The notes under the pieces are model-generated. The model ran no database searches, was not told the origin of the DNA, and saw only the letters and a list, made by a program, of their open reading frames with translations. Made by a program: the position numbers and the translations under genes. A stretch of 64,000 nucleotides of DNA from a phage. How positions within the stretch are numbered: the first letter of the stretch is position 1; each line of letters starts with the position of its first letter. This document shows, piece after piece, positions 19,063 through 62,935 of the stretch. The stretch lies in sequence record NC_101838.1; one strand, 5' to 3'.

Positions 19063-20544
19063 TTACTTAGCGTACTCGATTAATTCCACAGTTTTCCCAA
19101 AGCTCGGGATATAATTTTTATTATACCCTTCGGTGAGAACCCATAAAGTATCGTACTTTTTCCACTTGTTGTCAACAGCCTTTTGTTCAAAGTTATGCTC
19201 AAAGTAGAGGTCGGTAAGGACGATGACATCTTTTGCATTCGGTATGTTAGCATCCAGATACTCGAACACGCAGGCGGCTGTTGTGCCCCATGTTGAGTGG
19301 ACCTCATAGTTAATCATCTCATCGATGTTACCGCGAGTGTATACTTTAACCTCTCCAACCTCCGTTGACCAACAGAACATAGTAACCTTAAACTCTTTAT
19401 ACAAATTGCACAACCCGGTGATCTCATTGAACATTTTCTTTAAAGTTCTTTGTGAGATCGACCCAGAAACGTCTAAAGCCACTACAATATCTATAGTGTT
19501 TTCCGGATTACGACCAGGAACAATAACGTGTTGATTCTTGTTTATAGCTCCAACTTTTCGCATTGTGGTGGTCAAAGACCCAGATCGGCGACCAGGTTTT
19601 CTGTAGGTTAACTCAGCCTTTCTTTTAGATAACATACGTTGCTTAATAATATCTATATAATTGATTACAGGCTTGCCTCTGTTTTTGACAAACTCGCGCA
19701 CCGCCTCGGGACAACGACCTCCTGAAGCTTGCATTGCTGCTTCCAACATGTCACCAGAGTCCTGCATGGCCTGATCTTTGTCAGATTGACTGATTACTGG
19801 TTGCGGCTGATCATACCCCATAGCCTTTCCAAGATCATCACTAGTGCCACCGTTCCCGCTCATGTGATCATCGGTTTGTCGTTTATCTCCTTGGGAGTTC
19901 TCACCTTTACCGTTCTTACTTTTACCGCCATTCTGATCTCTTTGTTTATCAAGAACTGCATAGACGTTCTCAGCAATCCATCCATGAAACCTCATGTCGC
20001 AGTAGCAATTAGCTAAGAAGCCAAAAGGCTTACCTTTTACGAACTCAGTGCTTTTCCCCTTCGGGAAGAAAACACAAGGAGGCTTGCTAAAGTCAACCAC
20101 AAGACCTGTGTTGATAACGTGATCACAAGCAATATTGAACAGTTCCGGCTCAAAGCTTTTACCACGGACCAGATGATCACAGATAATATGCCCCACCTCA
20201 TGTGACAGAAGAAAGGCCACCTCTTTCACAGATTTTGGGGAATAGAAAACCTCAGCCATCTCAAACTGCTTGTCAGTCAGAGATGCTTTAAGAATGGTTT
20301 TACGCTCATCCGCCAACCCCATAATGAACTCAGGGCTGTAGTAGATGCGTTTATGGTCGGTTGCCATGGTGGAGCACCATGTGTGGTTTTCTACGAACTG
20401 CAACCCTGACAGTAGTGTGCCATAAAACGGCAGCTTTTCAAGGAGATACATACGTGCAGCCTGCAACATTCTCAGGGCATCATCTTTCTGCGAGGCAATG
20501 ATTTCTGAACTTCTGCTATCCATTAAAACTCCAGAAGGGGCCAT
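19063..20544 (-). CDS. VWA-domain protein with N-terminal metallopeptidase-like HExxH region (CobT/DUF2201-like partner of MoxR ATPases)
   Basis: HEVGHIICDH motif in N-terminal half; MIDAS-like VVALDVSGSIS in C-terminal half. Confidence 0.6.
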   Translation of the reverse strand: MAPSGVLMDSRSSEIIASQKDDALRMLQAARMYLLEKLPFYGTLLSGLQFVENHTWCSTMATDHKRIYYSPEFIMGLADERKTILKASLTDKQFEMAEVFYSPKSVKEVAFLLSHEVGHIICDHLVRGKSFEPELFNIACDHVINTGLVVDFSKPPCVFFPKGKSTEFVKGKPFGFLANCYCDMRFHGWIAENVYAVLDKQRDQNGGKSKNGKGENSQGDKRQTDDHMSGNGGTSDDLGKAMGYDQPQPVISQSDKDQAMQDSGDMLEAAMQASGGRCPEAVREFVKNRGKPVINYIDIIKQRMLSKRKAELTYRKPGRRSGSLTTTMRKVGAINKNQHVIVPGRNPENTIDIVVALDVSGSISQRTLKKMFNEITGLCNLYKEFKVTMFCWSTEVGEVKVYTRGNIDEMINYEVHSTWGTTAACVFEYLDANIPNAKDVIVLTDLYFEHNFEQKAVDNKWKKYDTLWVLTEGYNKNYIPSFGKTVELIEYAK

Positions 20545-20556
20545 TGGCCCCTGTCA

Positions 20557-21534
20557 TTATTTAACGTGTTTGAAAATACCTGCCAACTCGGTCATTGTCA
20601 TGCGGGTGGTCTTCATAAGATCTGTCATAGCTTTCTCCATAATTGGAGATACTACCATAAAGTTTCCTTTAGTGAAACCTTTATTCCAGTCGGTCACCAA
20701 CAGGGGTTTAAGTCCAGCTCCAAGACGTTCACCAGTTAAAGCACAGCATTTGCGAATATACGAACTCTTAAATTGGCTGAATGACAGATCAACTTTCATA
20801 CCTACATCGTAGAACGTTTGACAATAGAAAGTGTAAGCTTTGGCAATCTCAACATCATCAGGTAGTGCAGGAACCTCTTCTGTAAGCTCCTCTTCGACCT
20901 CCTGAGTCTCTTTTTCCTCTTCATGCACCTGTTGCGTCATTTCTTCAATCTCTTCTGTGATAGGCTCGTTTACAATGTCGGAAATGTGCTTCTTGGGTGC
21001 ACGATAAGTAACTTTAGACATCGGTAGCATATCTTCCTCCTCTTCTTCGTCAAAGAGTGCTAGTTTATCCTCTTCCGTTCCATATTGCAAGATGAAATCT
21101 TCAAAAGTATAATCACCTTTCAATTTCTCCATACGCTCTTCGCTCAGGTGGAGCATCATCTGCTGGACAATTTTTCGATCAGTTTCGTCTTTAATCAAGA
21201 CTGCAGTCTTTTTATCTACCAGACAGTCCTTTAGAGAGTTGCATCTCAATCCCACCACACAACAGTTATCAACCGCATAAGGACCTTCATCATCTATCCG
21301 CTCCAGGGATGGGTAGAAAGGATTCCCCAGCCCGTTTTCATCTGTGTGCATGTCAAAAGGTATAAGGGTATAGTCGCATACTCCATCTCCTAAAAGTTTT
21401 TTACCAAATAGGAGGTATTCTTCCCATGACAGGTCGAACTCTATATCTCGTTTCCGTGCGTTATTCTGTTTGCGTCTATATTTTTTGAGCAAGCGCTCTA
21501 ACTCTTCTGGTGTATAATATTTTTCAAGATTCAT
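20557..21534 (-). CDS. hypothetical protein, N-terminal region with possible HNH/His-Me-finger-like nuclease motif
   Basis: ORF track 20557..21600 begins with TTG without SD; ATG at 21534 follows GAGAGA and a TTGACA-17-TACGAT promoter; motif CxY...SLERIDDEGPYAVDNC...N.LK; contains the 27-bp repeat at 20998-21024. Confidence 0.45.
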   Translation of the reverse strand: MNLEKYYTPEELERLLKKYRRKQNNARKRDIEFDLSWEEYLLFGKKLLGDGVCDYTLIPFDMHTDENGLGNPFYPSLERIDDEGPYAVDNCCVVGLRCNSLKDCLVDKKTAVLIKDETDRKIVQQMMLHLSEERMEKLKGDYTFEDFILQYGTEEDKLALFDEEEEEDMLPMSKVTYRAPKKHISDIVNEPITEEIEEMTQQVHEEEKETQEVEEELTEEVPALPDDVEIAKAYTFYCQTFYDVGMKVDLSFSQFKSSYIRKCCALTGERLGAGLKPLLVTDWNKGFTKGNFMVVSPIMEKAMTDLMKTTRMTMTELAGIFKHVK

Positions 21535-21565
21535 GAGTCGTCTCTCGTGCTCTGTAAGTGAAGAA

Positions 21566-21594
21566 ATCGTATCAATTGTCTCAACAGATGTCAA
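21566..21594 (-). promoter_or_regulatory. sigma70-like promoter for leftward block
   Basis: Minus strand TTGACA - 17 nt - TACGAT upstream of ATG at 21534. Confidence 0.35.
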
Positions 21595-21607
21595 CATCAA
21601 AAACGTG

Positions 21608-57938: not shown

Positions 57939-58003
57939 TACAACAAGTTACGGTCAGGGGGTAATAAAGCCCCTTGATCACATAAAAATTATGCTATCCC
58001 TGG

Positions 58004-58032
58004 TTGACAGGGATCGGCAGTTTTGCTATATT
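58004..58032 (+). promoter_or_regulatory. sigma70-like promoter
   Basis: TTGACA - 17 nt - TATATT. Confidence 0.5.
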
Positions 58033-58081
58033 CTTTTTTGAAGGGAAGTTGTAAGAAAATTAACTAAGAGGTAAAAACACC

Positions 58082-58501
58082 ATGAACATTAAATCTAATA
58101 ATCCGGCATATAGCTTTGATAACGCTTTTTGTCACGGTCCGGCGGCGAAAGGATTCGAAATCGATGGTAAACTAATTATTGTCAATGTTGACGGGGAAGA
58201 GGTTGCAGTATATCCGGTGGCAGACGTAAAAAGCCGTTTACAATGCCGCATGGATGTTACCGCCTATCAGCTTGATCCGGTTCGCATAGTTGCCCTGGTC
58301 CTGGAAGAAGAAATTAAAGCCATGCACCATAGCAACAGGTTTATTGGTGACGCTCAGGATAATATGAAGGTGTGCCGCCATAAAGTTAATGAAGTGCTTA
58401 AAGAGTACGGCTATAAAGATCTTATGATCAAACGTGATGAAAAATTCCGCTACCGTAACGACCTGGCAAATCGGATTTTTGAAATATACGAATCATTATA
58501 A
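58082..58501 (+). CDS. hypothetical protein (139 aa)
   Basis: TAAGAGG SD. Confidence 0.55.
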   Translation: MNIKSNNPAYSFDNAFCHGPAAKGFEIDGKLIIVNVDGEEVAVYPVADVKSRLQCRMDVTAYQLDPVRIVALVLEEEIKAMHHSNRFIGDAQDNMKVCRHKVNEVLKEYGYKDLMIKRDEKFRYRNDLANRIFEIYESL

Positions 58502-58519
58502 TTTTTTAACTGAATTATC

Positions 58520-58545
58520 AAGGGGCTTAGCCCCTTTCTTTTTGT
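58520..58545 (+). terminator. intrinsic terminator ending the rightward small-gene module
   Basis: AAGGGGC-TTA-GCCCCTT followed by TCTTTTTGT. Confidence 0.6.
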
Positions 58546-59149
58546 CTGCTCTTCCCCCTACCATAAACGGCCCTACCTGGAAAGTGGAATAATTGACGAG
58601 CCATCAATCCCACACACTGTACAAACATACATGTAAAATAGCTATTGCATAACCTTTCATTGTGTGGTAGCGGTGCTATTTTTTACCAGTTTTCCTTCCA
58701 AAATTGCACGTAATGCAGCTATTGCATAAATTTTAACCTGATGCATATCTTCAATATCTTGTCAACAAATAAAAATTCTTATAAGTCATACACTTATACC
58801 CCCACAAAAGCGTTCTCTACGTGAAAAATCGGGCATAACTATAGCCGCCAGATCTCAGAATTTACGTACGCTCGCCATTCTATAGCCTGCTAAGTATTTA
58901 TTCCAACCATAGAATAATGGAATAGTCAATACCTGAATAAAATAATTATTCGTTTAAACTGCATAACATAAATCAGCTCAGGTGTCAACATTTTTCGTAA
59001 ACAGTCTTAAATTGTCACTGTGAGTTATCATAAACAGAGAAATCTTTAGTCGTCTAATGTTTACTGTACGTTACTATACTGACTGGAATCATTAGATGAC
59101 TAATAGAAAGATAAGAAATAATTAACGATACAATTATTTTACCTGTAAC

Positions 59150-59400
59150 AATAAGGCAACTATGCAAACGAATGGCATGGCGCGACGGAGTCGCGACATA
59201 ATATAAAAGCAGTAACCATCACCCCCGTGATAGTTTGTCTGCAAACTATTAATCAGATCATAGTTGCCTTGTATTTAGTTAATCATGACATAACAAGCAA
59301 GGCAACTATAGATCTTCTAATAGTTGCCCTGCTTTTATATTATGTCATGCTAATTATAATCAGTGCGATTATTGTCATGCAAACGAATGGCATGGCTTAT
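59150..59400. repeat. non-coding region of nested direct and inverted repeats
   Basis: 20-bp direct repeat ATGCAAACGAATGGCATGGC at 59162 and 59377; 18-bp inverted repeat GACATAATATAAAAGCAG at 59195 / 59329; GGCAACTAT in alternating orientation 4 times; palindrome CGCGAC-GGA-GTCGCG. Confidence 0.5.
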
Positions 59401-59458
59401 CATCTCTGTGTAAACAATCTATGCGTGAACAGTGAAACATGAAATAATAACAGTCGTT

Positions 59459-59515
59459 ATTGTGTCAAGTATTCCGATTGTGTCACCATTGTGTCTAAAG
59501 TGTCATATTGTGTCA
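59459..59515. repeat. iteron array: 5 copies of (T/A)TTGTGTCA at about 10-bp spacing
   Basis: TATTGTGTCA 59459, GATTGTGTCA 59477, CATTGTGTCT 59487, AAAGTGTCA 59497, TATTGTGTCA 59506. Confidence 0.5.
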
Positions 59516-60089
59516 GACAAGTTTTTCTCCTCTTTGTCAAGTGCTGCATGAAAAATTTACAAACTGGTATGGTAGCATTTTTGCGGACCTGTTTACATTC
59601 AGGAGTGTATGTATAATCCTTGTTGTGTGGGCGTTTATACGTCTGGACGGTCAGAAGTCTGCAGGTTAATATCTAATCTATTGGCTGCTAACTATATCCC
59701 ACACAAATGATAAGAAATATAATTGTTATATGCGTAAACTGTAACTCATGTTATCAATCCCTGTATGGATCGCCAGTGGTGCGCATAATGGGTATTATGT
59801 TAAATTGCCCGTAATGATAAAGGTTCTCACAATGATAGGTATTCTCATTCACCCTCACAAAATAGATTGCAAATGTTGTGCCACTGTGTGAACGGCCTCA
59901 CCTATTAATTTGCCTCACTGCCTCGATATTTGAGAATTATTATAAGAATGAGAAGTATTCCCATTCCGTCCGCCTGGCAGCACTCCTGTAGGTCCTGCAA
60001 GGACTCTAGCTTTCAGCTAGACCCTTCGGGCCTCCCTGTAGGTCAGGTCAAAATCGGGGTAGAATTGGGCCTATTCAGATATTTCTGGC

Positions 60090-60330
60090 TGACTCTTCAG
60101 GTCTGTGTGGGAAAAGCCAACCTCTCCGGCGGGGCAGGGGGATATCTGCGGGAAAATTGCAGGTCAATTAAAAAATTTACGTGGTATATGAAGCGCTCTT
60201 CAGGTAAGGCATGTATTATGGGATGAAACCCTCTTCAGGCAATGATATTTGTGGGTGTGATATTTGCTGGAAAGCCAGATATGACGGGACTCCCGGCGGG
60301 GCAGGGGTGGTACAGACAGGGAAAATATGA
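60090..60330. repeat. two degenerate tandem units carrying CTCTTCAGG and CCGGCGGGGCAGGGG motifs
   Basis: CTCTTCAGG at about 60095, 60197, 60232 (and 60645); CTCCGGCGGGGCAGGGGG at 60124 and CTCCCGGCGGGGCAGGGG at 60291. Confidence 0.4.
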
Positions 60331-61005
60331 AGGATGTGGTTGGGTAGATTGATCAGACAGGTAGAGTATGGAATATGTTACAAGTATGTTAAATATGGAG
60401 GTTGAATATCTGTAGGATTTGTGTGTAAAATCAAAGACTTAAGTGGTGTTGTGGTATTTTCTATAAATAATTCAAGTTTAATAGGCAATATTTGTCTCTA
60501 TCCGCTTTGTGTGGTAAACAGATTCAGATTAGATTGGTTTACAAGTGTATACATAATATACAAATTAAAGATACAAGAAACCCCCCCTCCCCCCTTCGGC
60601 TACCATTCACCTTTTCCTCTGACTGGTACTTAAACACTTATTCAGACTCTTCAGGTTATCACCCATATATCATATGGCAGTGACTGGTGTCCTCCGGCCC
60701 CTCTTTCGTCACCCGTCCGCTTCGCCATGCTAATGCCATAGCTAATGGTTCGGTTGTTCACCCTGTTCACTCAGGTGTATCTCTATACCCCTTCAAACCG
60801 AAGAGAACAGAAAACCCGAATTACTCGGTAAAAGAAAAGAGAAGAACTTAATTTTATCAGGATAGGCAAGAATGTCAAGGTATGACTGCTCACTAAACAA
60901 GCAAACAGTCATGTGTGGGAGGTAAGTGATTGTGGTGGTAGGAAATTTAGTTGAAAGATGTGTTATAGGTGCTTCCAGCACTTTAGCCGGGCAGCTAATT
61001 GTGTG

Positions 61006-61221
61006 TCAGTCCAGCGGTTCATCCTCTACTTCACTGAAATCAATGTTCATGGTCTCTTCCCAACCATCGATCTCAGCACAAGAGTGGAGTTCTTTAGGGT
61101 TTACTCCCAAAGCCTCAGCAACAGAGTCTATATTTAACACCTCTGGCAGGTATGATTCATCGAATTCAAGGTAAATCAGGCCACGAGTGTTGTCAGCTCC
61201 ACCAAATATCTCTATCTTCAT
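61006..61221 (-). CDS. hypothetical acidic protein (71 aa)
   Basis: GAGGAG SD upstream on minus strand. Confidence 0.45.
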   Translation of the reverse strand: MKIEIFGGADNTRGLIYLEFDESYLPEVLNIDSVAEALGVNPKELHSCAEIDGWEETMNIDFSEVEDEPLD

Positions 61222-61342
61222 AAAATCTCCTCTGGGAATGAAAGTGTGAACAGGGTTTTATACGTTCTAATGCACAGGAATTATACACGTTTGCCTCTTC
61301 AGGCCATGCTTTAGCATGAGGAACCTGTGTGGGCTCGGTGCT

Positions 61343-61555
61343 TCATAGTCTACCACCTCTGAACTCTTCGTGCTCAGGCATAATAGAGAACCAGATATCT
61401 ACGATGTCTTCCCACGTTAGGTCATCAGCCTCAGGATCTACCTGGAGCGAAGATGGAGAATCTTCAGAATCTAAGTTTTCCTCTTTCACTGGCTCAGCCA
61501 AGGGACATATAGTCACTCCTTTGGATGTCTCTTCAGATGCATGTGTGTTTATCAT
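61343..61555 (-). CDS. hypothetical acidic protein (70 aa)
   Basis: ORF track; start uncertain. Confidence 0.35.
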   Translation of the reverse strand: MINTHASEETSKGVTICPLAEPVKEENLDSEDSPSSLQVDPEADDLTWEDIVDIWFSIMPEHEEFRGGRL

Positions 61556-61687
61556 GTTCCACCCGTGAGTATTCCGGCAACAGCCGCTATGGACGTAATG
61601 ATCATCAGGATCACCACTAAAACTTCGGACAATGTTCTCATTGTGTACTCCATATTCTACAAACTATGTGTGGATACTATCACTGGA

Positions 61688-61723
61688 TCGGTAATGTGTC
61701 AACAGTCGGTAATGTGTCAACAG
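61688..61723. repeat. perfect tandem duplication of 18-bp unit TCGGTAATGTGTCAACAG
   Basis: Two adjacent identical units; core TGTGTCA shared with the 59.46 kb iterons; intergenic between leftward genes. Confidence 0.5.
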
Positions 61724-61933
61724 AAACGCCGCGAGGGTTTGGTTAAAATCCGAGCGTATGGTGATTTGGGTCAAAACGGACGTGCGTTCTCGCTACGCTC
61801 GAAATATGGAGTTGTTTGTAGGGAGCTCTTAAACGCTCTGTAATGAGATTAACTGCCCAAGGTATGCAATCGTGCACCAGATAAAGAAAAGGACGCCACA
61901 GAGCGTCCTAGGTGTCTTAAATTTGATATTTTG

Positions 61934-62245
61934 CTATACCCACGAGGGCTTATCAAGGTTGGAGTAGCTGAAAGGTGTCAAAAGGTGACTGTCAAAATCT
62001 CTCAAACTATCCAAATCTTTTTCCTCGTCCTGACACCATCTGTGCCTACATTTGTTGTTGTAGTGCATGGAATGCATAGCGTTCTGCAACTTAACAGGCA
62101 CAAGTGATTCAGGAGTAGATAGTATTGTTGGGTATGCCAGAACCACCTCAAACAGTGGAAACACATCGAAACTAAAGTCTACCTCTGCAGAGGTTGATGG
62201 CATGTAGGAGTATTTAGCCGCCTTTGTAGACATAATCCACCTCAC
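61934..62245 (-). CDS. hypothetical protein (103 aa)
   Basis: ORF track. Confidence 0.4.
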   Translation of the reverse strand: MRWIMSTKAAKYSYMPSTSAEVDFSFDVFPLFEVVLAYPTILSTPESLVPVKLQNAMHSMHYNNKCRHRWCQDEEKDLDSLRDFDSHLLTPFSYSNLDKPSWV

Positions 62246-62574
62246 ACAGGTTTGATAATACCTTCACCGAATAGCTCTTCGTATCTAATCTTGTCCGGAT
62301 CCCACTCCTGGATAATTTCGAAGACAATATCCAACCCAGGGACAATCACTTCTCCAGTGTCAAGCTTAGCAAGAACAAAACCGGAAGGTTGAATGGTTTC
62401 CCAGTTACGGCGATCAGAATAAAATACTTCGAAAATATCACCAACCTCAATCCGTTTCTGTTGCTCAAGATGCTCAAGGTTCTCTTTCATACGGATGCAG
62501 CGTATTTTTCGTGCAGGCCATAGACCACCTGCATCACGTTCATTCAATTCTTTTACAGTGATCGGTATACCCAT
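62242..62574 (-). CDS. hypothetical protein (110 aa)
   Basis: ORF track; 4-nt overlap with downstream gene. Confidence 0.45.
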   Translation of the reverse strand: MGIPITVKELNERDAGGLWPARKIRCIRMKENLEHLEQQKRIEVGDIFEVFYSDRRNWETIQPSGFVLAKLDTGEVIVPGLDIVFEIIQEWDPDKIRYEELFGEGIIKPV

Positions 62575-62629: not shown

Positions 62630-62935
62630 TTATTCTACAGAGCGTTTGAACAGAATGTCTGCCTCGGACATGTGCTCAACCTCTTCTTCGATTTTAGCTC
62701 GACGTTTTTCAGCCTCATAGCGAATATCGAACTCGGTAGCCACCAGAGATTTGATGAATTTAGGAGAATACAGGTGATCCTGCTTCTCAACGAGAATGAT
62801 ATCCTTAATGGCATCTTTCAGATCTTTAATCTGAAGTTGGAGTTCCACCAGTTCTTCGATTGTCTTGCGAAGGCGATCACGCTCTGCAGTGTCAGAAGGA
62901 AGAGAGGTGAACAGTTCAACTTTAGATTTAGCCAT
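62630..62935 (-). CDS. hypothetical coiled-coil protein (101 aa)
   Basis: ORF track. Confidence 0.45.
   Translation of the reverse strand: MAKSKVELFTSLPSDTAERDRLRKTIEELVELQLQIKDLKDAIKDIILVEKQDHLYSPKFIKSLVATEFDIRYEAEKRRAKIEEEVEHMSEADILFKRSVE

What the first reader, a model, noticed from the sequence alone, without database searches (positions are those of the whole stretch)
59459..59515. Helically phased iteron array (T/A)TTGTGTCA x5
Five copies of a 9-10 bp motif at about 10-bp spacing within 57 bp is the classic arrangement for cooperative binding of an initiator or repressor on one DNA face. The same TGTGTCA core recurs in the tandem duplication at 61688-61723.
Basis: seen in the sequence. 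Interest (0 to 1): 0.5.

Follow-up and report, generated by a model that had tools for sequence, protein, structure and literature searches.

The report
Repeat array flush with phage genome end
The five TGTGTCA repeats are real and sit exactly against the edge of the 459-bp terminal repeat that marks the physical ends of this rV5-like phage's DNA, so they are more likely a docking site for the DNA-cutting and packaging machinery than a replication origin or repressor site.

Summary
There are five same-strand copies of (A)TTGTGTCA at 59459-59515, with start-to-start spacing of 18, 11, 9 and 10 bp. No cluster this dense appeared in 200 simulated sequences.

The window comes from a Vequintavirus (an rV5-like coliphage). 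The array lies in the 2.5-kb conserved "non-coding" box of these phages, between convergent gene blocks.

The main result is positional. Phages EdH4 and Gotham carry identical 459-bp direct terminal repeats, which map to window 59516-59974. The Pr121LW record is opened at exactly 59515|59516. The last repeat therefore ends at a reported genome terminus, inside a small palindrome, TGTC-A|GACA.

In all 19 relatives examined, 2-7 TGTCA-core copies abut this boundary, mostly 9-11 bp apart. Copy number and spacers turn over, and a second array (GTRAACA, period 15-16 bp) lies further out.

My best reading (about 0.55, inferred and not shown) is a terminase recognition and positioning array next to the cut site. 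The analogues are the T7 SRL/SRR heptamer arrays, lambda cosB and SPP1 pacL/pacR.

An origin or repressor role is poorly supported. The TGTGTCA in the 61688-61723 duplication is a strain-specific duplication of a sigma-70 -35 box and is probably unrelated.

Novelty: a new member of a known kind. Interest is moderate.

The parts
59459..59515 (+). Proximal repeat array. Five direct copies with consensus Y-A-T-T-R-TGTCA, at 59459-59467, 59477-59485, 59488-59496, 59497-59505 and 59507-59515. The last copy ends at the terminal-repeat boundary.
   Evidence: Searches give the sequence and searches show clustering beyond chance. Searches show 2-7 copies in every relative examined, with the last copy always flush with the boundary and 50 of 62 spacings at 9-11 bp.
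59410..59438 (+). Distal repeat array of the GTRAACA type. The window has GTAAAC at 59410 and GTGAAC at 59425, plus a degenerate GTGAAAC at 59432. Relatives carry 1-9 copies at a 15-16 bp period, 57-250 bp from the boundary.
   Evidence: 36 of 44 spacings are 15 or 16 bp, with consensus RYGTRAACARTNA. One search shows the sequences.
59511..59519 (.). Small palindrome TGTC-A-GACA containing the reported genome terminus and terminal-repeat boundary, between 59515 and 59516.
   Evidence: the EdH4 and Gotham ends are identical over exactly 459 bp; the Pr121LW linear record starts with GACAAGTTTTTC and ends with GTATGTCA. TGTCAGACAAG is conserved in all relatives. The exact phosphodiester bond is uncertain by 1-2 nt.
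59516..59974 (.). The 459-bp sequence that forms the direct terminal repeat of virion DNA. It is present once in the window, as in a concatemer junction or a collapsed assembly.
   Evidence: Searches give a length of 459-460 bp in all relatives, and one search shows a single copy in the window. PMC6563267 reports 458-bp terminal redundancies in EdH4 and HdK5. PMC7471380 reports 459-bp terminal repeats in Gotham and the same start sequence in all virions. One search shows that the KPP-1 repeat boundaries, determined with PhageTerm, align to the same positions.
59972..59978 (.). Second terminal-repeat boundary (59974|59975), inside the small palindrome GCC-T-GGC. The flank beyond it (59975-60050) is hypervariable but carries no TGTCA array.
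61688..61723 (-). It is probably not part of the terminus element. On the minus strand it supplies the TTGACA -35 box of a sigma-70-like promoter.
   Evidence: family D13. TTGACA-N17-TAGTAT, matching 10 of 12 positions; single copy in navn, APCEc02, EdH4 and Gotham.

Best explanation
The array is a terminus-adjacent maturation and packaging signal of a phage with direct terminal repeats.

**Shown**
- The window is a Vequintavirus (rV5-like).
- The 459 bp at 59516-59974 is the sequence reported as the direct terminal repeat of virion DNA in close relatives.
- The last TGTCA repeat ends exactly at one repeat boundary, and it does so in every relative examined.

**Inferred**
- In replicating concatemers, which carry one repeat copy per junction, a sequence-specific DNA-binding component of the packaging machinery binds the TGTCA cores side by side. 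This component is most likely the unidentified small terminase subunit, acting as an oligomer.
- Most copies are about one helical turn apart, so they would lie on one face of the DNA.
- This binding positions the terminase nuclease to nick or cut at the edge of the array, within TGTC-A|GACA.
- A second cut at 59974|59975, together with DNA synthesis across the 459 bp, would give each packaged genome a full terminal repeat, as in T7-type packaging.

I cannot tell whether the array acts at initiation (like cosB or pacB) or as the stop-and-cut signal at the end of a packaging run.
For: **Identity of the phage**
- The region matches 121 Vequintavirus records at 90-99% identity.

**Position of the genome ends**
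- The EdH4 and Gotham records have identical 459-bp sequences at both ends. These map to window 59516-59974.
- Pr121LW, from a third laboratory, is opened exactly at 59515|59516.
- Published statements agree. PMC6563267 reports 458-bp terminal redundancies for EdH4 and HdK5. [quoted passage not shown]
- In Klebsiella phage KPP-1, from another genus, a 514-bp repeat was defined by two-fold coverage and PhageTerm (PMC9862379). Its boundaries align to the same positions, exactly at one end and within 2 nt at the other.

**Comparative behaviour of the array**
- The 17 distinct relatives from GenBank all carry 2-7 copies with a TGTCA core on the same strand, and the last copy is always flush with the boundary. 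Two uncultivated contigs show the same arrangement.
- Spacing is 9-11 bp in 50 of 62 intervals, with a mean of 9.98 bp.
- Copy number and the positions between cores vary, while the T, G, T, C, A core positions stay nearly invariant.
- The array is one of only two hypervariable spots, one on each flank of the terminal repeat, in an otherwise 90-100% conserved non-coding region.

**Precedents**
- T7 has arrays of the heptamer CCTAAAG at about 12-13 bp spacing. They start 15 bp after the left terminal repeat and also lie before the right one.
- In T7 the small terminase subunit recognises PacB and the large subunit cuts at PacC (PMC9860248).
- SPP1 TerS binds pacL and pacR, which flank the cut site pacC (PMC6316719).
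Against: - There are no binding, cleavage or packaging data for any Vequintavirus.
- I could not identify a small terminase subunit. None is annotated next to rV5 TerL, and the genes flanking the array have no known function.
- Two PhageTerm-based reports call Vequintavirus genomes circularly permuted or headful-packaged (PMC8407724; PMC13211470). This contradicts fixed ends.
- KPP-1 keeps the homologous repeat boundaries but has no TGTCA array beside them. The array is therefore not a universal requirement for cutting there.
- Copy number falls to two canonical cores in FV3, and the period is 7 bp in B9-1. Phasing is therefore not strictly required.
- Hypervariability could also mean weak constraint.
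- The other boundary has no comparable array.
- The termini are taken from relatives, not measured for this phage.
Confidence: 0.55

Rival explanations
1. Replication-origin iterons. A phage initiator binds the repeats cooperatively and melts adjacent DNA to start replication near the genome end.
For: - The element consists of direct repeats in a large non-coding region with the lowest G+C content of the window (0.379 at 58-60 kb).
- rV5 encodes a 116-aa winged-helix protein (ORF79) that PHROGs labels "replication initiation protein". It could bind repeats.
- T7 secondary origins (phiOL, phiOR) lie next to its terminus-flanking arrays. The phiOL position is given. Its role as an origin is from my own knowledge.
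Against: - The unit and period are 9-10 bp, not the roughly 17-22 bp iterons spaced about two turns apart that typify plasmid and lambda origins.
- No initiator gene lies at or near the array. ORF79 is about 40 kb away in rV5, next to a divergent-transcription switch that would suit an origin better.
- Both flanking gene blocks converge on the site and the cumulative GC skew peaks there, which is the terminus-like pattern. The rV5 authors could not assign an origin from skew (PMC3606486).
- Copy number and spacing turn over freely.
- The flush position against the terminal-repeat boundary is unexplained by an origin role.
Confidence: 0.12
2. The array is a by-product with no function. Both flanks of the terminal repeat would be hot spots of slippage and illegitimate recombination, because ends are cut, resected and copied there. 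The TGTCA units would simply be repeated duplications of the boundary sequence TGTCA|GACA.
For: - The two immediate flanks of the terminal repeat are the only hypervariable parts of the non-coding region.
- The other flank varies by insertions bounded by about 10-bp direct repeats.
- There are obvious recent unit duplications in the array: GTGTATAAG twice in FV3 and GGTGTCY three times at 7 bp in B9-1.
- The unit nearest the cut site is the template-like copy.
Against: - An array is retained in all 19 sequences, always on the same strand.
- The period is preferentially 9-11 bp (81% of spacings), rather than one fixed slipped unit.
- Conservation within the unit is graded. The core is nearly invariant while the flanking positions are free. 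Selection on the core predicts this, and pure duplication does not.
- A second, different array with its own period lies further out.
Confidence: 0.15
3. Transcriptional element. The repeats would be operators for a repressor or activator, or a cluster of sigma-70 -35-like boxes on the minus strand (TTGACA, GTGACA, TAGACA, ATGACA, CTGACA) driving or regulating a transcript.
For: - The minus-strand reading is xTGACACAAT. The consensus scan lists four overlapping promoter-like sites in the array.
- The same TTGACACA reading is the -35 box of a better promoter at 61702-61674.
- A protein in a PHROG labelled "transcriptional regulator" is encoded 3 kb away at 62630-62935.
Against: - All four sites match only 9 of 12 positions and arise from the repeat period itself.
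- Nothing coding lies downstream on the minus strand for about 1 kb, and there are no conserved ORFs.
- Rfam finds no RNA family.
- Both neighbouring gene blocks end, rather than start, at this region.
Confidence: 0.08
4. Host response-regulator sites. The TGTCA direct repeats at 10-11 bp resemble the tandem half-sites of OmpR/PhoB-family winged-helix regulators. An example is the Pho box, CTGTCAT plus a 4-bp AT-rich spacer at an 11-bp period (recalled from memory, not tested).
For: Stretches such as GTGTCATATTGTGTCA (window) and ATGTCATATTATGTCAC (navn) share the TGTCAT core and its tandem head-to-tail layout.
Against: - The period is mostly 10 bp rather than 11 bp, and the C before TGTCAT is absent.
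- No gene is there to regulate.
- The terminus position is unexplained.
- The resemblance is to a 5-bp core only.
Confidence: 0.03

Closest known systems
T7/T3 terminus-flanking repeat arrays (SRL and SRR of Dunn and Studier; the names are from memory)
   Same: Both have many direct copies of a short motif (the 7-bp CCTAAAG in T7) at roughly one-turn spacing (about 12-13 bp). In both, the array lies just outside a short direct terminal repeat, in a non-coding stretch. Both belong to phages whose concatemers are cut at fixed sites to give short direct terminal repeats.
   Different: The motif sequences are unrelated. T7 has arrays on both sides of its repeat, whereas here only one side carries a TGTCA array. 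The T7 array begins 15 bp from the repeat, whereas here the last copy is flush with, and forms part of, the boundary. The host phage is a 137-kb myovirus with no phage RNA polymerase. As far as I know, the function of the T7 arrays is itself not settled.
Lambda cosB (R1-R3 sites for gpNu1) and T7 PacB, the small-terminase recognition sites beside the cut site
   Same: These are repeated short protein-binding sites placed next to the terminase cleavage site, and they anchor the small subunit so that the large subunit cuts at a defined position. T7 PacB and PacC are described in PMC9860248. The lambda details are from established knowledge.
   Different: Lambda has three 16-bp sites of mixed orientation plus an IHF site, and it produces 12-nt cohesive ends rather than a 459-bp repeat. 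No binding has been shown here and the binding protein is unknown.
SPP1 pacL/pacR and the P1 pac hexamer repeats
   Same: In these systems, clusters of short repeats recognised by TerS flank the cleavage site. For SPP1, gp1 binds pacL and pacR and gp2 cuts in pacC (PMC6316719). P1 pac has 4 + 3 TGATCA/G hexamers (from memory).
   Different: These are headful (pac) phages with imprecise series-initiating cuts and permuted genomes, and their sites lie in or near the terS gene. Here the ends are reported as fixed, and the array lies in a gene desert far from the terminase gene.
Origin iterons of plasmids and lambdoid phages
   Same: Both are direct repeats in non-coding, relatively AT-rich DNA.
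   Different: The unit length and period differ (9-10 bp here against about 17-22 bp). No adjacent initiator gene is present. The location is at a convergence of transcription and at a genome terminus.

Membership tests
Terminase recognition site next to the cut site (cosB / pacB / pacL-pacR kind) | Lies immediately beside the site where terminase cuts, that is, beside a physical genome end | tested here: met
   The last repeat ends at 59515. The EdH4 and Gotham terminal repeat starts at the equivalent of 59516, and the Pr121LW record is opened at that bond. The termini come from relatives' records and papers, not from this phage.
Terminase recognition site next to the cut site (cosB / pacB / pacL-pacR kind) | Contains repeated short sequence elements of the kind that could be bound by an oligomeric small subunit | tested here: met
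   The window has five copies and relatives have 2-7. The TGTCA core is nearly invariant and 81% of spacings are 9-11 bp.
Terminase recognition site next to the cut site (cosB / pacB / pacL-pacR kind) | Position and motif are conserved among phages that share the terminase | tested here: met
   All 17 distinct GenBank relatives and 2 uncultivated contigs keep the array flush with the boundary. It is absent in the more distant Mydovirus KPP-1.
Terminase recognition site next to the cut site (cosB / pacB / pacL-pacR kind) | Specific binding by the small terminase subunit, and a requirement for packaging | not testable with these tools
   This needs EMSA or footprinting and packaging or transduction assays. 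No small subunit is annotated in rV5.
T7-type terminus-flanking repeat arrays | Arrays of a short direct repeat lie just outside a short direct terminal repeat | tested here: met
   The T7 arrays were read directly. The window array is described.
T7-type terminus-flanking repeat arrays | Arrays of the same motif are present on both flanks of the terminal repeat | tested here: not met
   The flank beyond 59974 has duplicated GCAGCACTCC and CCTGTAGGTC segments in some relatives but no TGTCA array.
Replication-origin iterons | Repeat units of about 17-22 bp spaced about two helical turns apart | tested here: not met
   The units are 9-10 bp and the spacing is 9-11 bp.
Replication-origin iterons | An initiator gene lies adjacent to or overlaps the repeats | tested here: not met
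   There is no conserved ORF within about 1 kb on either side. The flanking proteins have no known function. The only initiator-like protein of rV5 (ORF79) is encoded about 40 kb away.
Replication-origin iterons | The site supports initiation of replication | not testable with these tools
   This needs marker-frequency analysis or 2D gels. GC skew here is terminus-like, but it is confounded by transcription (PMC3606486).
Sigma-70 promoter or operator cluster | Good -35 and -10 hexamers at 16-18 bp spacing, with a downstream transcript or gene | tested here: not met
   Only matches of 9 out of 12 positions were found, and they are generated by the repeat period. No gene lies downstream and there was no Rfam match.

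The most novel reading that the evidence does not exclude
The TGTCA array, together with the TGTC-A|GACA boundary palindrome, is the packaging signal of the rV5-like myoviruses. An oligomeric DNA-binding subunit would read a variable number of one-turn-spaced repeats and cut precisely at the edge of the last one. This would be a ruler-free, "cut at the end of the array" mechanism for making exact 459-bp terminal repeats. In addition, the rapid turnover of both flanks of the terminal repeat would be a footprint of how the ends are duplicated.
Probability: 0.4. Interest if true: 0.55.

Novelty: new member of a known kind. Interest (0 to 1): 0.42.

Why it matters
Vequintaviruses are among the most commonly isolated coliphages and are candidates for therapy and biocontrol. 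Their 2.5-kb "non-coding" box has had no assigned function since the rV5 genome paper, and database records still disagree on whether their genomes have fixed ends.

Placing the physical ends inside this box, with a conserved repeat array exactly at one cut site, has three uses:
- It gives a concrete and cheaply testable candidate packaging signal.
- It helps annotators open these genomes at the right place.
- It would allow the design of transducing particles or packaging-deficient contained phages for this group.

It also offers a myovirus counterpart to the long-known but poorly understood T7 terminus-flanking arrays.

Tried and rejected
- **Rfam scan of 58000-62500 at E<=1.** It returned nothing, so no known RNA family explains the region.
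- **tRNA scan of the window.** It found none.
- **Sigma-70 and terminator scan.** It gave only weak, period-generated promoter matches in the array.
- **Pfam and PHROGs on the ten genes flanking the non-coding region.** All are of unknown function except one PHROG labelled "transcriptional regulator" at 62630-62935. No binder could be nominated from the neighbourhood.
- **Search for a small terminase subunit in rV5.** TerL is at 58.0-60.9 kb of rV5. The genes upstream of it are spanins, a small unknown ORF and tRNAs, with no annotated TerS.
- **Cross-genus test in Klebsiella phage KPP-1.** The terminal-repeat boundaries are positionally homologous, but there is no TGTCA array.
- **Scan of IMG/VR for the boundary sequence.** I hoped to find contigs that end at the terminus. 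There were only two hits, both internal.
- **Second TGTCA-type site beyond the other boundary (GGTCAGGTCA).** I rejected this because it is GGACAAGCACA in many relatives.
- **Literature search for the T7 SRL/SRR names.** It found nothing in the held library, so I read the T7 arrays directly from the genome instead.
- **phAPEC8-like phage Schickermooser (328-bp repeat).** I could not obtain its accession to test a third genus.

Full report
**1. The observation**

The 57 bases at 59459-59515 read ATTGTGTCAAGTATTCCGATTGTGTCACCATTGTGTCTAAAGTGTCATATTGTGTCA. There are five same-strand copies:
- ATTGTGTCA at 59459, 59477 and 59507
- ATTGTGTCT at 59488
- AAAGTGTCA at 59497

Start-to-start spacing is 18, 11, 9 and 10 bp.

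The data do not fit that:
- TGTGTCA occurs 14 times in the window against 12.3 expected, so it is not a genome-wide word.
- ATTGTGTCA with up to one mismatch occurs 29 times on the two strands, and four of these lie inside the 57 bp.
- In 200 first-order Markov simulations of the window, no cluster exceeded two.

**2. Where the array sits**

The 2.1 kb around the site matches 121 phage records at 90-99% identity. Nearly all are Vequintavirus, the rV5-like coliphages. The records labelled "Campylobacter phage" are GenBank "UNVERIFIED" entries of the same genus.

The gene layout of the window is as follows:

| Window region | Strand | Content |
|---|---|---|
| 21.7-58.5 kb | + | rIIA, helicases, primase/helicase and DNA polymerase, among others |
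| 58.5-61.0 kb | none | No conserved ORF |
| 61.0-64.0 kb | - | Small genes |

Both gene blocks therefore converge on the gap. This gap is the grey "non-coding" box of the rV5 genome paper. That paper assigned it no function. It noted only a skew change there, which it linked to the change in transcription direction (PMC3606486). None of the related records I inspected annotates anything meaningful in it.

**3. The array abuts a genome terminus**

Korf et al. reported "short terminal redundancies of 458 bp" for the vequintaviruses EdH4 and HdK5 (PMC6563267). [quoted passage not shown]

I fetched both ends of the EdH4 and Gotham records. In each, the first 459 bases are identical to the last 459, and the match fails at 458 or 460.

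I aligned the reconstructed junctions to the window:
- The repeat corresponds to window 59516-59974.
- One boundary lies between 59515 and 59516, immediately after the A of the fifth TGTGTCA.
- The other boundary lies between 59974 and 59975.

A third record from another laboratory, vB_EcoM-Pr121LW, is a linear entry. It begins GACAAGTTTTTCTCC (equivalent to 59516 onward) and ends GTATGTCA (equivalent to 59515).

Klebsiella phage KPP-1 belongs to another genus, Mydovirus. It has a 514-bp repeat defined by two-fold coverage and PhageTerm (PMC9862379). Aligned to the window, its boundaries fall at the homologous positions, exactly at one end and within 2 nt at the other.

The repeat sequence occurs once in the window. 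This is what a concatemer junction or a collapsed assembly looks like.

Both boundaries lie at the centre (within 1 nt) of small palindromes: TGTC-A-GACA at 59511-59519 and GCC-T-GGC at 59972-59978. Arms of 3-4 bp are weak evidence on their own. I record this as an observation only.

**4. Comparative anatomy**

I analysed 17 distinct versions of the 300 bp outside the 59515|59516 boundary:
- Every version has 2-7 same-strand copies with a TGTC core.
- The last copy is always flush with the boundary.
- Of 62 spacings, 50 are 9, 10 or 11 bp, with a mean of 9.98 bp.
- The unit consensus is Y-A-T-T-R-T-G-T-C-A. The A at position -4 (64 of 79 units), the T before GTC (74 of 79) and the final A (67 of 79) are strongly kept. 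The next two positions are free. The G, T and C positions were fixed by my search pattern, so their invariance is partly by construction.

Two uncultivated IMG/VR contigs show the same layout.

Further out, 57-250 bp from the boundary, lies a second array. Its consensus is RYGTRAACARTNA, with 1-9 copies at a 15-16 bp period (36 of 44 spacings). The window has copies at 59410 and 59425 and a degenerate one at 59432.

A column-by-column conservation profile shows the non-coding region is mostly 90-100% conserved, including the terminal repeat. The exceptions are the two immediate flanks of the repeat: 59400-59500 (the arrays) and 59976-60050. A third, smaller dip lies further out at 60126-60175. 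The far flank varies by insertions bounded by about 10-bp direct repeats.

Phasing is not absolute. B9-1 has three units at a 7-bp period, and FV3 has GTGTA variants that are clearly recent unit duplications.

**5. Interpretation**

The position is the strongest fact. A repeat array that stays flush with a terminal-repeat boundary, while its copy number and spacers turn over, is most simply a recognition or positioning element for the machinery that cuts there.

The precedent is direct. I read the T7 genome ends. The 160-bp terminal repeat is followed after 15 bp by about a dozen CCTAAAG heptamers at 12-13 bp spacing. A similar array precedes the right repeat.

More generally, small terminase subunits bind repeated sites beside the cut:
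- T7 gp18 recognises PacB, and gp19 cuts at PacC (PMC9860248).
- SPP1 gp1 binds pacL and pacR, which flank pacC (PMC6316719).
- Lambda gpNu1 binds the R sites of cosB (established knowledge).

An oligomeric binder contacting one TGTCA per helical turn fits the dominant 9-11 bp period.

The steps from binding onward are inferred, not shown. I cannot say whether the array serves initiation or the terminal cut. I also cannot say how the 459 bp is duplicated.

Evidence against this reading:
- The binding protein is unidentified.
- Two PhageTerm reports call vequintaviruses permuted or headful-packaged.
- KPP-1 lacks the array despite having homologous boundaries.
- The second boundary has no array.
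- High variability is also what weak constraint would give.

**6. Rival explanations**

- **Replication origin.** This is disfavoured by the unit size and period and by the absence of an adjacent initiator gene. The site also has a terminus-like convergence of transcription and GC skew. What keeps it alive is the local AT-richness and a small winged-helix protein in rV5, labelled "replication initiation protein" in PHROGs and encoded about 40 kb away.
- **Neutral slippage by-product.** Obvious recent unit duplications and the hypervariability of both flanks support this. Universal retention, strand constancy, the preferred period and the graded within-unit conservation argue against it.
- **Promoter or operator role.** This rests only on matches of 9 out of 12 positions produced by the repeat itself, with nothing downstream to transcribe.
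- **Resemblance to OmpR/PhoB-type tandem half-sites.** This is limited to a 5-bp core.

**7. The 61688-61723 duplication**

The 18-bp unit TCGGTAATGTGTCAACAG is tandemly duplicated only in this phage. Navn, APCEc02, EdH4 and Gotham each have one copy.

On the minus strand it reads CTGTTGACACATTACCGA. With TAGTAT 17 bp downstream, it forms the second-best sigma-70-like match of the region, at 10 of 12 positions. The match lies just after a minus-strand intrinsic terminator at 61909-61890.

The shared TGTGTCA is therefore most simply the complement of a -35 box, TTGACA followed by CA. I treat the link to the terminus array as coincidental. The 20-nt similarity between 59449-59468 and 61701-61720 (18 of 20 positions, family D11) is noted.

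**8. Verdict**

The general idea of cooperative binding to repeats about one turn apart remains plausible.

The best-supported account is a terminus-adjacent packaging and maturation signal, with confidence of about 0.55. This would be a new member of a known kind of element.

Noticed in passing
window 59146-59400: There is a dense, highly conserved set of repeats 120-370 bp outside the terminal repeat. AAGGCAACTAT occurs four times in alternating orientation at 59153(+), 59260(-), 59299(+) and 59320(-, 1 mismatch), giving 7 hits in the window against 1.4 expected. There is also an 18-nt perfect inverted repeat (59195-59212 / 59329-59346) and a 20-nt perfect direct repeat, ATGCAAACGAATGGCATGGC (59162 and 59377). 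The region is 92-100% conserved in relatives. It could be a second protein-binding module (packaging, origin or other).
   Followed up: partly
window 60093-61303: CTCTTCAGG occurs five times on the + strand within 1.2 kb (6 hits in the window against 0.5 expected). Several copies are followed within 5-35 bp by TGTGTGGG. The function is unknown.
   Followed up: partly
window-wide, e.g. 40289, 47669, 52663, 57308, 58609 (-) and 59624, 60104, 60912, 61326 (+): TGTGTGGG is about five-fold over-represented (12 against 2.3 expected). Its orientation tracks the direction of transcription, so the sense strand reads CCCACACA. This suggests a transcription- or RNA-related signal specific to the phage.
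   Followed up: partly
window 59976-60050: The far flank of the terminal repeat is hypervariable among relatives. It varies by insertions bounded by about 10-bp direct repeats (CCTGTAGGTC here, GCAGCACTCC in others). The window's version contains a perfect hairpin, CTAGCTTTCAGCTAG.
   Followed up: partly
window 60126-60140 and 60293-60307: There is a perfect 15-nt direct repeat, CCGGCGGGGCAGGGG, with copies 167 bp apart. The region around the first copy is variable among relatives.
   Followed up: no
window 62630-62935 (-): A 101-aa protein matches PHROG 639, labelled "transcriptional regulator" (E 1e-21). From memory it resembles the T4 DsbA double-stranded-DNA-binding protein. It is the only nearby gene with a DNA-binding hint.
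   Followed up: partly
L029 (rV5 NC_011041) 65308-65658, outside the window: rV5 ORF79 is a 116-aa winged-helix protein. It has sub-threshold Pfam matches to HTH_36 and DUF6945, and it matches PHROG 12838, labelled "replication initiation protein". It sits next to the divergent-transcription switch at about 66.7 kb of rV5, which would be a more plausible place for an origin.
   Followed up: partly
window 19063-21600 (-): There are two adjacent genes similar to HNH endonucleases. The second also has a weak match to a "decoy of host sigma70" family. It is possibly the Srd-like protein discussed for rV5 gp11.
   Followed up: no
GenBank records of relatives: Database records of this genus are opened at many arbitrary positions and variously described as circular, permuted or terminally repeated. 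Only a few start at a true terminus (EdH4, Gotham, ECP2309, bov10K2 version 2, Pr121LW). About 19 records are labelled "Campylobacter phage" (UNVERIFIED) although they are Vequintavirus sequences.
   Followed up: no
window 60580-60600: There is a C-rich tract, ACCCCCCCTCCCCCCTTCGG, in the non-coding region. It was not examined.
   Followed up: no
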